IMG/VR virus record: IMGVR_UViG_3300027763_000029 | Direction: 5' to 3' (one strand) | Length of the DNA: 64,000 nt | From: a virus | Shown here: positions 52,671 to 57,059 of the stretch, one piece after another | Numbering within the stretch: position 1 is the stretch's first letter | Layout of the letters: each line of letters begins with the position of its first letter | Notes under the pieces: model-generated | The model's database searches: none | Seen by the model: only the letters and a program-made list of their open reading frames with translations | Told to the model about the DNA's origin: nothing | Translations under genes and position numbers: made by a program

Positions 52671-53132
52671 TTATGCGAAGTATGTCGTGTCGTTAGTGAA
52701 TACTCCTGAATAGTTTATTCCCCCAATACTAAGTCTGTATTGTGTATTTAAATAAGAATCAACAAATACTATTCTGGCAATTTCTACGGAATTCTGAATA
52801 TTTCCTTTTCTTATAGAGGAAATTCCAATAGTAGCTGAGGCTGCCTTCTTATTGAAGTTGAGAGTTGCACCACCCGTGCAAGTAAATGTTAATCCATCAG
52901 AGCTATATGTTCCAATAGTATTATTTGTACCAGCTATAGTTATGCTTGTATCAAAAGTTGATAGAGGTGTTGGGGTTGGTGTTGGGGTAGTGGCCGGTGT
53001 TGGTGAAGGCTGTTGTCCTACAGTATTTTCATTACATATAATTGTCAATATATCTTCTACTATTCTGCATGGTTCGCTAGGCGATACGTGTTCTACGGCT
53101 GATACTTTAAGTAATAGATAATTATTGCTCAT
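52671..53132 (-). CDS. Protein starting with the C-terminal part of module B, then Pro/Thr linker and module C
   Basis: YLLLKVSAV...PC...LTIICNE aligns with NILKLTVY...GC...INIYCND in 48961..50910; DTSITI...SDGLTF...YSGVF module C. Confidence 0.65.
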   Translation of the reverse strand: MSNNYLLLKVSAVEHVSPSEPCRIVEDILTIICNENTVGQQPSPTPATTPTPTPTPLSTFDTSITIAGTNNTIGTYSSDGLTFTCTGGATLNFNKKAASATIGISSIRKGNIQNSVEIARIVFVDSYLNTQYRLSIGGINYSGVFTNDTTYFA

Positions 53133-53141
53133 ATATTATAC

Positions 53142-56100
53142 TCAGATTGGGGTTCTAGTTGGAGTTGGAGTCAAAGTATTAGTTTTTGTTACTGTGATAG
53201 TCGGTGTCGGAGTTGGGGTTGGACTAGTAAAAGGGTATGTTCTTACTGGACAAGTCAATAAATAAGTCCAAGCAGTTGATGCGCATGGAGCCTCAACTAC
53301 AACCTTAATATATATCATTCCGTCTGGTTTCTCTATCTGATAACTACCAGCTCCAGTACCACTCAAACCTGTTGCATAACCGCAAGGGCTACTTCCCCTA
53401 AAACCACTATCAAATAGTAATACTTCTGGTTTTGTCTTATCGACAGGAATACCTATAACCTTGAATCTATCAGGAATAGTATAAGCTTCATAATAGAATG
53501 TCATAGTTCCAGGCCAAAATGATGTCTGAATCACTCTTGTATCTACAGTATAAAGAGTTACTTCTGTTTCAATAGGAATATTCTCGATAATATTATTATT
53601 CAATGTTATTTTCTTAAAACCAGCAGTATCATCTATGCTTCTGAAATAATCTTCTACAGATACTGCGTGTGTATCTTCGTCTAATCCATCTGATCTCAAT
53701 ATAGAATATTGCAAAGCTGTTGTTGGTACATTATCAACTACGATATAGTTTTGTCCGGATACTGCTGGTATGACCACATTCAATATGTATATTGGATTTT
53801 GCCCGCCAGCACTCTGTAGATCGTTACAAGGTACTGGTTGAGATATGGTCGGAGTTGGAGTGATACTAGATGTTGGTGTTGGACTAGGTAATACTCCGAT
53901 AATCTCTACAAAATTTTCAGCATTAAATTTACTATTTAAATTATTTACATCTCCATATCCAGTTAAAACAGTAACGGATATCGGAGAGTCGAGATATCCA
54001 CTCCCAGGATCTGTGATATTTACAGCTAATTGAGAAAATTTATTTGGATCTGAATTTATAGATGCTCCACTTCCGTCTCCATTAGAAGAAACTATTGATG
54101 GTGGATATGAAGAATATCCTGATCCAGCATTAACTACAACATATGGTTTATCCGTAAATTGATTTATATCAAATACTATACCTGTTGTTAATGGAATTTC
54201 ATTGTGATCTACTAGAGATGGAGCAGTTTTATATCCTGATCCAGAATTTATTACAATATATGATATGATAACTCCGGATTGATCCACCGAAGTAACAAGT
54301 ATCTCGGCCCCAGTACCTCCGCCACCAGTTAAAGAAATAATATCTCCAGCAACAACAACTGTAGTATTAGTTCCTATGAGCGATGATATAGAACTATTTG
54401 TTATTCCATTTTCTTTTGAAATAGCAAAATTATTAGAATTAGCAACTAATGTTGCTGCTGTTCCATTTCCTGTTAATGTTACTAGTCCTGTTGGAGCACT
54501 AGTGAAACCATAACCCCCATTTAGAACTTCGTATGTTAAAATATCACCATATGAATCAACAGTTAATATTTTAATAACAACATCAGAACCACCACCACCG
54601 GTTGTTGTTAACAAGTCATTTGGAGCATATCCGTAGCCTCCGGTTAATGATGTTATAGAACTAAGAGTCATTGATCCCGAAACTATTTTTATCTGAGCTC
54701 CAGAGCCTCTACCACCAACAACATTTAATGTTTCTCCTATATTGTAATGATTACCACCAGAAACAGTAATCGATTCCGACGTTATTCCTCCAAGAGCAGG
54801 AATAGTAAAATGATCATTGTTGAAGGAAGCAGATACTCCTTGTCCATCTCCTGTTAATGATTGTAATCCAGTAGGAGCTCCTGTATATCCGCTACCAGAG
54901 TTAATAACGGTGAAACTAGGATCTGTAAAATTATTAGAGTTAAAAGTAGCGACTAAACCAGCGCCATCTCCATCTGAACTAAATTGCGAAGGAGCATTAT
55001 AGTAACCTGATCCAGCATCAATAATAGCAAAACTAGTTTTAGTAAACTTAGAAGTATCAAAAGCTGGAGTATTAGTGACAACACCACCAGAACTATTTAA
55101 TACTATGGGGATGGAAGTATATCCTGAGCCTCCTGAAGTTATAACAAAATCTAATATTTTTCCTGAACCATCGACAGATAGAATTTCTATGGTTGCTCCA
55201 GTTCCATTGCCTCCTGTAATTAATAAAGTGTCTCCAACATCATAACCAGTACCAGTATTAATAAAACTAGAGATAGAAGACTTAGTAATTGATCCAGCAG
55301 CAGGAATACCAAAATTATCGGAATTTGCAGATATTGCCGGTTGTGAACAATTTTCAGAAGAGCATTTTAATACCGATAATGCTGTGGGAGGAACAGTAAA
55401 TCCATAACCACCATTTATTACTTCCCAATCAGTTATGGCTCCTGTAAGTTCGTTAATTTCTGTAACTCTAATAACAACATCACTTCCGTCTCCTCCTGTT
55501 GTTGTTAATAGATCTCCAACAGTAAATCCAGATCCAGCGGGTAATGTTCCATCAATAGTTTCTTTAGTAATAGAACCAGACGTAATCTTTACTTGAGCTC
55601 CTGAACCACCACCACCAATTATATCAACTATTTCTCCTATATTATATCCTGTACCTCCTTGTAATTTTATCGAATCACTAGATATTCCTCCAGCAGCAGG
55701 AATAGTAAAATTATCAGCATTAAAAACAATATTAGTACAAGATCCTGAGCTATTCAAAGATACTAGACCATTAGGAGCATAAGTATATCCATGTCCTGGA
55801 TTAAGAACATTTATACTCGTTATTGTCCCACCAGCACCAGTGTTAGTAACTTCTAGAACAGCATCTTTACCTCCACCGCCAGTAGTTGTTAACAAGTCTC
55901 CAATTGAAAATCCAGTACATCCACCGATTGTATTTATGTTTACAGAATCGTTTGTTAAGCCACCGCTAGTAATTTGTATTAGTCCACCAACACCACCACC
56001 ACCTGTAACAGAAATATAGTCTCCTATATTATATCCATTTCCACCACTAAAAGCAGTGAATGAATCAGTAGTTATTCCTCCTGCCACAACCGTCAATGAA

Positions 56101-57059
56101 GCACCATAGCCTCCACCGCCATTCGGTGACAACTTATCTCCAATTCTGAATCCTTTTCCTCCACTGATATCAGATATCGAATCATTAGTTAATCCCCTTA
56201 ATGCACAACTTCTAAAAGCAGGAGCACCTATTGCCAAATCAATTCCTGATGGCAAATTAATATCATTCATTGTTGTACTAATATGTTTAAATAATATTGG
56301 ATCGCTTAATTTTGTTATATTATTTTCAGAATCTGTTACAGATGCGTACAGGTAGATGAACTTTCCTTCGTTGTTGGGAAATGTTATTTTACTATTAAAG
56401 TTTTGGGTGCTTTCTCCAGAAAAGAATTCGCCACTTTTCTTTTCAAATGATACGGAATTAGGCGGAACATCAAAAAATTCGTAGTTATATTTATAGCCTA
56501 TAATTGTATTTTTAGCTAAACCAACCAAAGGAAATTCTGTAGTACCAGAAGGTAGAACTATGATACCATCATTGATGGTAGTATATCCAGGATCAACAAG
56601 CTCGACAATAACCCTATTTTGTCTAGAAAATGCACTTGGTGTTAGTGTAGGAGTTTGTGTAGGAGAAGGTGATGGGACTATATCATCTCCACACTTTAAT
56701 GTGCACATAGCAGAAGATCTAACATCATTTTCTTGATCATATAAAGTTGCTTGTAGAACATAGTCTCCAGCAACATCTAAATCAACAAGAGTTGCAAATG
56801 TTTGTGTTGAAAATGATGCATAGATAGACTCTACTGCAGGATTGAATATATTGACTCTATTTCCTGGATTTGAGTTTGGATTCAATATTTGATAAGTTAT
56901 CTGATAGCTATTTCCAGGAATTAAGTTATCGCATATGACCGATAGGATAAAGTTGTTATTTATGCATTGTCCGGCCGGTAGCTTATATATCCCCAGACCT
57001 GTTCCTTGTCCGGGTAGATAATAAGAAAAATCGAAAGTGATTGTTGCTGGTGTTGACAT
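53142..57059 (-). CDS. Virion protein with 2x module B, nested Gly-rich repeats and a C-terminal PDxF/W.Y.L.CP module
   Basis: GxGY..GD.L...GGGG and N.GSGY...P repeats of the kind found in T4-like cyanophage structural proteins; AGGA Shine-Dalgarno and GTGTAT motif. Confidence 0.75.
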   Translation of the reverse strand: MSTPATITFDFSYYLPGQGTGLGIYKLPAGQCINNNFILSVICDNLIPGNSYQITYQILNPNSNPGNRVNIFNPAVESIYASFSTQTFATLVDLDVAGDYVLQATLYDQENDVRSSAMCTLKCGDDIVPSPSPTQTPTLTPSAFSRQNRVIVELVDPGYTTINDGIIVLPSGTTEFPLVGLAKNTIIGYKYNYEFFDVPPNSVSFEKKSGEFFSGESTQNFNSKITFPNNEGKFIYLYASVTDSENNITKLSDPILFKHISTTMNDINLPSGIDLAIGAPAFRSCALRGLTNDSISDISGGKGFRIGDKLSPNGGGGYGASLTVVAGGITTDSFTAFSGGNGYNIGDYISVTGGGGVGGLIQITSGGLTNDSVNINTIGGCTGFSIGDLLTTTGGGGKDAVLEVTNTGAGGTITSINVLNPGHGYTYAPNGLVSLNSSGSCTNIVFNADNFTIPAAGGISSDSIKLQGGTGYNIGEIVDIIGGGGSGAQVKITSGSITKETIDGTLPAGSGFTVGDLLTTTGGDGSDVVIRVTEINELTGAITDWEVINGGYGFTVPPTALSVLKCSSENCSQPAISANSDNFGIPAAGSITKSSISSFINTGTGYDVGDTLLITGGNGTGATIEILSVDGSGKILDFVITSGGSGYTSIPIVLNSSGGVVTNTPAFDTSKFTKTSFAIIDAGSGYYNAPSQFSSDGDGAGLVATFNSNNFTDPSFTVINSGSGYTGAPTGLQSLTGDGQGVSASFNNDHFTIPALGGITSESITVSGGNHYNIGETLNVVGGRGSGAQIKIVSGSMTLSSITSLTGGYGYAPNDLLTTTGGGGSDVVIKILTVDSYGDILTYEVLNGGYGFTSAPTGLVTLTGNGTAATLVANSNNFAISKENGITNSSISSLIGTNTTVVVAGDIISLTGGGGTGAEILVTSVDQSGVIISYIVINSGSGYKTAPSLVDHNEIPLTTGIVFDINQFTDKPYVVVNAGSGYSSYPPSIVSSNGDGSGASINSDPNKFSQLAVNITDPGSGYLDSPISVTVLTGYGDVNNLNSKFNAENFVEIIGVLPSPTPTSSITPTPTISQPVPCNDLQSAGGQNPIYILNVVIPAVSGQNYIVVDNVPTTALQYSILRSDGLDEDTHAVSVEDYFRSIDDTAGFKKITLNNNIIENIPIETEVTLYTVDTRVIQTSFWPGTMTFYYEAYTIPDRFKVIGIPVDKTKPEVLLFDSGFRGSSPCGYATGLSGTGAGSYQIEKPDGMIYIKVVVEAPCASTAWTYLLTCPVRTYPFTSPTPTPTPTITVTKTNTLTPTPTRTPI

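What the first reader, a model, noticed from the sequence alone, without database searches (positions are those of the whole stretch)
53895..56195. Gly-rich repeats nest as a full binary tree: a dendrimer-like protein
Seen: nine opening halves (IT.DS...GG.GY.IGD.L...GGGG.GA.I.I) and nine closing halves (N.GSGY...P......FN..NF) occur in the order O1 O2 O3 C3 O4 O5 C5 O6 C6 C4 C2 O7 O8 C8 O9 C9 C7 C1, i.e. balanced brackets. Only units 3, 5, 6, 8 and 9 have the closing hairpin (e.g. SVDGSGKILDFVI); in 1, 2, 4 and 7 it is replaced by exactly two child units. All left children end in IPAAGG/IPAAGS/IPALGG/ISKENG and all right children in TKTSFAI/TDPSFTV/TDKPYVV/SQLAVNI. Left leaves share DLLTTTGG.G.D.V; nodes 4 and 7 share YNIGE...GSGAQ.KI.SGS. 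Inference: recursive insertion of a domain pair into its own loop gives a branched single-chain architecture. I know of no described example, but have not searched.
Basis: partly seen in the sequence, partly recalled or inferred. Interest (0 to 1): 0.88.

Follow-up and report, generated by a model that had tools for sequence, protein, structure and literature searches.

The report
Self-nested beta-barrel tree in phage protein
A 1305-residue phage tail-region protein carries nine copies of one small beta-barrel domain inserted into each other's loop as a binary tree; relatives carry 7 to 19 copies nested up to eight deep, making this a very regular case of a domain repeatedly inserted into itself, a rare architecture so far described in cyanobacterial RNA polymerase.

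Summary
Residues 290-1055 of the gene at 53142-57059 (minus strand) hold nine 39-aa opening halves and nine 40-aa closing halves in the order (((h)((h)(h)))((h)(h))). A 12-aa hairpin (h) occurs only in the five leaves.

The order is not chance, about 3e-4 for a full binary order. 42 close metagenomic homologues parse as balanced full binary trees of five shapes, with 7, 9, 11, 13 and 19 units, up to depth 8. Opening and closing halves of matched brackets are of matched subtype.

No contact map was available, so O-C pairing is inferred, not seen.

Recursive self-insertion of HABAS/SBHM domains in cyanobacterial RpoC2 Si3 is published. I rate this a new variant of a known kind: another fold family, in a phage, deeper and grammar-like. 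Function is inferred only: probably a rigid, length-adjustable branched projection or adhesin of the tail tip.

The parts
53142..57059 (-). Whole gene, 1305 aa (P0001).
56193..57059 (-). N-terminal region, aa 1-289. It is beta-rich, with a Pro/Thr linker near aa 128-143. No family match.
56076..56192 (-). O1, opening half of the root domain (aa 290-328).
   Evidence: type R
55959..56075 (-). O2, opening half of node 2 (aa 329-367).
   Evidence: type S
55686..55958 (-). Leaf 3: O3 + hairpin + C3 (aa 368-458), one barrel.
   Evidence: model residues 82-164 align to small barrels; type A
55572..55685 (-). O4, opening half of node 4 (aa 459-496).
   Evidence: folded, pLDDT 91-96, in the truncated model; type N
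55290..55571 (-). Leaf 5 (aa 497-590).
55023..55289 (-). Leaf 6 (aa 591-679).
   Evidence: phrog_460; sub-threshold Gp18_dom_I; type B
54906..55022 (-). C4, closing half of node 4 (aa 680-718).
   Evidence: keeps its strands when O4 is present; type N
54786..54905 (-). C2, closing half of node 2 (aa 719-758).
   Evidence: loses all strands and confidence when O1, O2 and leaf 3 are removed; type S
54672..54785 (-). O7, opening half of node 7 (aa 759-796), 61% identical to O4.
   Evidence: type N
54405..54671 (-). Leaf 8 (aa 797-885).
54135..54404 (-). Leaf 9 (aa 886-975).
   Evidence: type B
54015..54134 (-). C7, closing half of node 7 (aa 976-1015).
   Evidence: type N
53895..54014 (-). C1, closing half of the root (aa 1016-1055).
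   Evidence: type R
53145..53894 (-). Pro/Thr linker, a roughly 200-aa C-terminal domain of unknown family, and a Pro/Thr tail (aa 1056-1305).

Best explanation
Residues 290-1055 are nine copies of one small beta-barrel domain. Each copy consists of an opening half of about 39 aa, a 12-aa hairpin and a closing half of about 40 aa. The barrel resembles domain I of the T4 tail sheath protein gp18. In four copies the hairpin is replaced by two complete copies of the same domain. The two halves of each host domain are therefore 183 to 690 residues apart in sequence but fold together. The chain runs outward through the opening halves and returns through the closing halves, so the N- and C-terminal parts of the protein meet at the root. 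The result is a rooted, comb-like binary tree with five leaf barrels at the tips.

The family follows a typed grammar: root -> (S, N or a single leaf); S -> (A, N); N -> (A or S, B or N). The right arm reads (O_N A)^k B (C_N)^k with k = 0 to 3. Whole subtrees are re-inserted in the largest members.

Shown: the sequence grammar, its conservation in homologues, and the AlphaFold2 behaviour. Inferred: the physical O-C pairing in inner nodes. Also inferred, with lower confidence of about 0.35: the function, as a rigid, length- and valency-adjustable branched projection or adhesin of the phage tail tip, with hairpin tips as the outward-facing sites.
For: The sequence shows nine O and nine C halves in balanced full-binary order, with the hairpin only in leaves.

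The homologue grammar holds widely. 42 close homologues parse as balanced full binary trees of five shapes: 27 with 7 units, 4 with 9, 4 with 11, 5 with 13, and 2 with 19 units at depth 8. In the held-out proteins P0002, P0094 and P0018, each bracket pair has matching O and C subtypes, apart from near-tie S/A calls. Over all parsed proteins 426 of 443 pairs match. No single tandem duplication yields equal numbers of O_N and C_N on the two sides of the arm, so balance looks selected (argument).

The hairpin is a general insertion site. In P0094 a leaf carries a foreign domain of about 135 aa exactly there.

In the deletion test (aa 459-758 = O4, leaf 5, leaf 6, C4, C2), O4 and C4 keep their strands at pLDDT 88-96, except for C4's last ten residues next to C2 (74). 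C2, without O1, O2 and leaf 3, has no strands and pLDDT 69/75/70/53. In the full model C2 scores 95/94/89/93 with four strands.

There is precedent for the mechanism. gp18 domain I is itself an inserted domain with adjacent termini (PMC3004832). HABAS domains are recursively inserted into each other in Si3 (PMC11515920).
Confidence: 0.78

Rival explanations
1. Interdigitated variant. The sequence is nested by descent, but in 3D parents and children exchange strands, as reported for parts of Si3. There would then be no nine discrete barrels, only one fused beta super-structure.
For: Inner-node O halves have a long first strand (model residues 11-20, 50-59, 180-188, 480-488) where leaves have coil. 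There are no linkers between parent and child halves. The pTM of 0.83 implies tight packing. Published Si3 domains are partly domain-swapped (PMC11515920).
Against: Leaves superpose as complete stand-alone barrels on gp18 domain I over 77-80 residues. Node 4 with its two leaves models confidently on its own.
Confidence: 0.12
2. Linear array or solenoid. O and C are two flavours of an independent module of about 40 aa that stacks on its sequence neighbours. The bracket-like order would be a by-product of duplication history.
For: Both halves carry a GxGY motif and have nearly the same length. Thousands of distant relatives look like plain tandem arrays with a period of about 52 aa.
Against: O and C profiles share nothing beyond GxGY (hhalign probability 1.5%). 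C2 follows C4 directly yet unfolds when the upstream part is removed, while C4 stays folded. Balance and binary branching hold in five different topologies and cannot arise by single tandem duplications. A foreign domain sits in the hairpin site.
Confidence: 0.06
3. Trimeric fibre. The halves pair between three chains of a tail fibre, and the monomer model is misleading.
For: The gene lies in a tail/fibre cluster and has Pro/Thr linkers. Only a monomer was modelled.
Against: The monomer model is already self-consistent, with pTM 0.83 and no segment under pLDDT 50. The best structural relatives are monomeric decoration barrels, not fibre folds.
Confidence: 0.04

Closest known systems
Si3 insertion of cyanobacterial RNA polymerase beta' (RpoC2): recursively self-inserted SBHM/HABAS domains
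   Same: One small beta domain family is inserted into copies of itself. Host domains are built from distant sequence segments. There are several nesting levels and bifurcating nodes. The whole forms a rigid elongated body whose two ends return to the same point (PMC10895346, PMC11515920, PMC13114784). Si3 (8emb) was the top, though weak, Foldseek hit of the full model.
   Different: The domain is probably different. Here the best matches are gp18-domain-I-like and EF-Tu-domain-2-like barrels, and no RNAP chain appears among the 50 rows shown by VIA-align. This protein is from a phage tail region, not a core enzyme. The nesting is much more regular: strict halves, no linkers, typed grammar. 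It varies among close relatives from 7 to 19 domains and reaches depth 8, against six levels reported for Si3.
T4 tail sheath gp18, domain I (PF22639) and the nested domains I-IV
   Different: gp18 nests four different folds once each, not one fold recursively. The sequence match to PF22639 is below threshold (14.6 against 27 bits; 2 of 82 leaves at E<0.1). No sheath gene was found in this genome.
Multi-barrel baseplate wedge and virion structural proteins of T4-like cyanophages (BFVD models)
   Same: 53 viral models match at E<0.001 with probability up to 0.99-1.00, mostly baseplate wedge subunits and structural proteins of Synechococcus and Prochlorococcus phages. PHROG families for baseplate wedge and virion structural proteins hit single leaves.
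   Different: Global TM-scores are only about 0.1, so the arrangement of barrels differs or is undefined. Whether any of them is nested was not examined.

Membership tests
Recursive self-insertion architecture (as in Si3) | A domain's sequence is interrupted by complete copies of the same domain family, over more than one level | tested here: met
   Half-specific HMMs give a balanced nested order to depth 4 in this protein and depth 8 in P0002 and P0094.
Recursive self-insertion architecture (as in Si3) | A closing half depends on sequence far upstream, not on its sequence neighbour | tested here: met
   AF2 deletion test: C2 loses all strands and falls to pLDDT 53-75 without O1, O2 and leaf 3. 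C4 keeps its strands with O4 183 residues away. This is a prediction, not an experiment.
Recursive self-insertion architecture (as in Si3) | Direct contacts between the two halves of each inner node | not testable with these tools
   The tools return no coordinates, PAE or contact map.
HABAS / SBHM domain (CATH 2.40.50.100) | [quoted passage not shown] | tested here: inconclusive
   The O halves carry an invariant G-D. 8emb is the top Foldseek hit but only at E 6e-3, probability 0.08. No RNAP chain appears among the 50 rows shown by VIA-align. Pfam finds nothing.
Gp18_dom_I (PF22639) | Score above Pfam's gathering threshold | tested here: not met
   Best 14.6 bits against a 27-bit cut-off. Only 2 of 82 leaves match at E<0.1.
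Gp18_dom_I (PF22639) | Six-stranded barrel superposable on T4 gp18 residues 98-188 | tested here: met
Beta-solenoid or tandem-repeat fibre | One repeat type of constant period whose units stack on sequence neighbours | tested here: not met
   There are two unrelated half types. The hairpin is present in only 5 of 9 units. The neighbour-adjacent C2 unfolds in the deletion model.

The most novel reading that the evidence does not exclude
This phage family may be the deepest and most regular self-nested protein known. It would be a single chain whose domain order obeys a context-free, typed bracket grammar of the a^n b^n kind. It would grow by inserting whole subtrees, or foreign domains, into a hairpin, up to 19 barrels and eight levels. 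Natural variants would differ only in tree shape. That would make it a natural, evolvable scaffold for branched single-chain proteins and a test bed for how recursive insertion arises and folds.
Probability: 0.6. Interest if true: 0.82.

Novelty: new variant of a known kind. Interest (0 to 1): 0.72.

Why it matters
Recursive self-insertion of a domain has so far been described essentially for one system, cyanobacterial RNA polymerase Si3. A second, apparently independent case would show that recursion is a general route to large rigid proteins and not a one-off. This case comes from a phage, seems to use another barrel, has strict half-domain boundaries, and has close relatives that differ only in tree shape. 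The series of natural variants (7, 9, 11, 13 and 19 domains) offers direct material for three uses. One is studying the folding of discontinuous domains. Another is studying how balanced insertions evolve. The third is engineering, because the hairpin already tolerates a foreign domain. For phage biology it points to a way of tuning the reach and valency of a tail appendage.

Tried and rejected
- Complex prediction on the isolated root halves (aa 285-328 with aa 1016-1058) gave no answer (ipSAE 0.03). It counts neither for nor against.
- Pfam on the whole protein, its ends, and the neighbouring genes gave nothing above threshold.
- Sequence searches of solved structures, with the region and with a leaf profile, gave nothing significant.
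- Foldseek against PDB with both models gave no hit at E<0.001.
- The ESM Atlas shape search gave only TM of about 0.3 to phage sheath, baseplate wedge and gp9/10-like clusters. The Atlas feature search of the C-terminal domain was empty.
- tblastn against GenBank phages found only a 31%-identity stretch in Cyanophage P-RSM6.
- The family-specific half HMMs could not parse distant relatives such as P0095 and P0100-P0112. Whether nesting occurs outside this family is open.
- The foreign insert of P0094 has no Pfam or PDB relative.
- I considered a mirror-tree or covariation test of nested against crossed O-C pairing. I rejected it because position-dependent context (what follows each half) would confound it.

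Full report
**What is there.** The finding lies in one ORF, window 53142-57059 on the minus strand, 1305 aa. Window 53895-56195 is exactly aa 289-1055. By anchor motifs and alignment, the region consists of nine opening halves of 38-39 aa and nine closing halves of 39-43 aa. The opening consensus is IT.DS...GG.GY.IGD.L...GGGG.GA.I.I.SGG. The closing consensus is N.GSGY...P...(G.G.G)...FN..NF plus a tail. The order is O1 O2 O3 C3 O4 O5 C5 O6 C6 C4 C2 O7 O8 C8 O9 C9 C7 C1. Units 3, 5, 6, 8 and 9 have a 12-aa hairpin between O and C. O1, O2, O4 and O7 end at the exact column where that hairpin starts, and the next O follows with no linker.

**Not chance, not an artefact.** HMMs built from the nine O and nine C copies score at least 43 bits on their own kind and less than 1 bit on the other. 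A profile-profile comparison finds nothing shared beyond the GxGY turn. Only 14 of 48,620 orders of nine O and nine C are full binary trees. DNA-level repeats are short and 60-88% identical, so the copies are old. The identical protein occurs on four contigs.

**Homologues carry other trees.** A search of 5.8 billion proteins found 45 close relatives and many distant ones, all from metagenomes. Further ones appeared in the shorter and longer length classes. With iterated half-HMMs, 42 close relatives parse as balanced full binary trees of five shapes:
- ((()(()()))()): 27 proteins of about 1100 aa.
- This window's shape: 4 proteins.
- One further level in the right arm: 4 proteins, plus one with a missed C.
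- Two further levels: 5 proteins.
- A 19-unit, depth-8 tree: 2 proteins (P0002, P0094).

The exceptions are contig-truncated fragments or divergent sequences in which the HMMs miss elements.

**The halves fall into roles.** A maximum-likelihood tree of 96 opening halves groups them by role: root, left inner node S, right inner nodes N, left leaves A, terminal right leaves B. It does not group them by absolute position. Role-specific HMMs give matching O and C roles for each bracket pair in the held-out proteins, apart from near-tie S/A calls, and for 426 of 443 pairs overall.

**The right arm is balanced.** It reads (O_N A)^k B (C_N)^k with k = 0, 1, 2, 3. No single tandem duplication adds an O_N and a C_N on opposite sides at once. 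Constant balance therefore implies either subtree-wise insertion or selection against unbalanced forms. In P0002, P0094 and P0018 a whole S subtree sits as a left child inside the right arm. In P0094 one leaf has a foreign domain of about 135 aa in place of its hairpin. The hairpin is thus a general insertion site.

**Test of long-range pairing.** I had no access to coordinates, so I used a deletion design. The segment aa 459-758 holds O4, leaf 5, leaf 6, C4 and C2. Node 4 is complete in it, but C2 lacks O2. In this model O4, both leaves and C4 keep the strands seen in the full model, at pLDDT 83-97; only C4's last ten residues, next to C2, fall to 74. C2 has no secondary structure and pLDDT 69/75/70/53. 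In the full model C2 scores 95/94/89/93 with four strands. C2 directly follows C4, so a neighbour-stacking solenoid should have kept it folded. C4 folds with its partner 183 residues upstream. The limits are that the deletion removes O1, O2 and leaf 3 together, and that this is prediction, not experiment.

**Comparison with what is known.** The top, weak, Foldseek hit of the full model was the crystal structure of the cyanobacterial RNA polymerase Si3 domain (8emb, E 6e-3). The literature describes exactly this kind of architecture there:
- 'HABAS domains ... inserted into other HABAS domains', 'recursively inserted' and partly domain-swapped (PMC11515920).
- 'Six-level nested structures' with 'bifurcating nodes' (PMC13114784).

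The barrel is common in phage virion proteins. A leaf profile finds 4,639 clusters among 1.84 billion representatives, 821 of them at E<=1e-10, mostly very long multi-repeat proteins. In addition, 53 BFVD models match, chiefly baseplate wedge and structural proteins of T4-like cyanophages. My half-HMMs cannot parse these distant relatives, so whether they are nested is unknown.

**Context and likely role.** The window belongs to a 151,782-bp IMG/VR virus record rated complete by CheckV. It has no recognisable sheath gene, and the domain occurs only in this gene. The gene lies in a co-directional block of structural-looking genes that includes giants of 2300-3753 aa. It sits four genes downstream of an ORF that an earlier, unchecked note reads as the tape measure protein. 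Pro/Thr linkers flank the tree.

Because the chain enters and leaves the tree at the root, the tree is in effect one huge insertion between the N- and C-terminal parts, projecting five leaf barrels outward. Related phages vary the number of rungs and leaves, and one displays a foreign domain on a leaf tip. I infer a rigid, length- and valency-adjustable projection or adhesin of the tail tip. Confidence in that function is about 0.35; nothing here tests it.

**Verdict.** The nested-insertion reading is well supported by sequence grammar, comparative data and predicted-structure behaviour, but it is not directly visualised. The novelty claim must be reduced from 'no described example' to a second, independent, unusually regular and deep variant of recursive self-insertion.

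Noticed in passing
P0094 aa 970-1114 (homologue, not in window): A foreign domain of about 135 aa, beta-rich by eye, replaces the hairpin of one left leaf. It has no Pfam or PDB sequence relative.
   Followed up: partly
P0011 and P0014 (about 2100 aa, 37-38% identical homologues): One inner node appears to enclose three tandem (A leaf, B leaf) pairs, that is six children. Several halves are truncated. The parse is uncertain.
   Followed up: partly
window 56629-56680, 53838-53894 and 53145-53230: Pro/Thr-rich linkers (PSPSPTQTPTLTPS-like) flank the tree and end the protein. Their DNA forms its own short repeat family (D4, D9).
   Followed up: no
window 24326-48870 (ORFs of 659, 3753, 2439 and 995 aa): These ORFs share repeated modules that hit phrog_15511 and phrog_18508 (annotated 'kinase'). 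This is a second repeat family spread over neighbouring giant genes.
   Followed up: no
window 52671-53132 (-), 153 aa: The gene just downstream has a weak Pfam hit to Phage_tube_2 (E 0.0045, below the cut-off).
   Followed up: no
protein library: The leaf-like GxGY/GGGG.GA repeat occurs in 4,639 clusters at 50% identity, mostly proteins of 800-8000 aa with 8-37 matched stretches. Pfam-A has no model that matches the copies tested here.
   Followed up: partly
7-unit homologues (for example P0020 aa 738-823): Their single right-hand leaf (type Z) is highly divergent (branch length 1.15). Its tail resembles the closing half of node 7, not that of a leaf, as if the tail sequence were set by what follows it.
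   Followed up: partly
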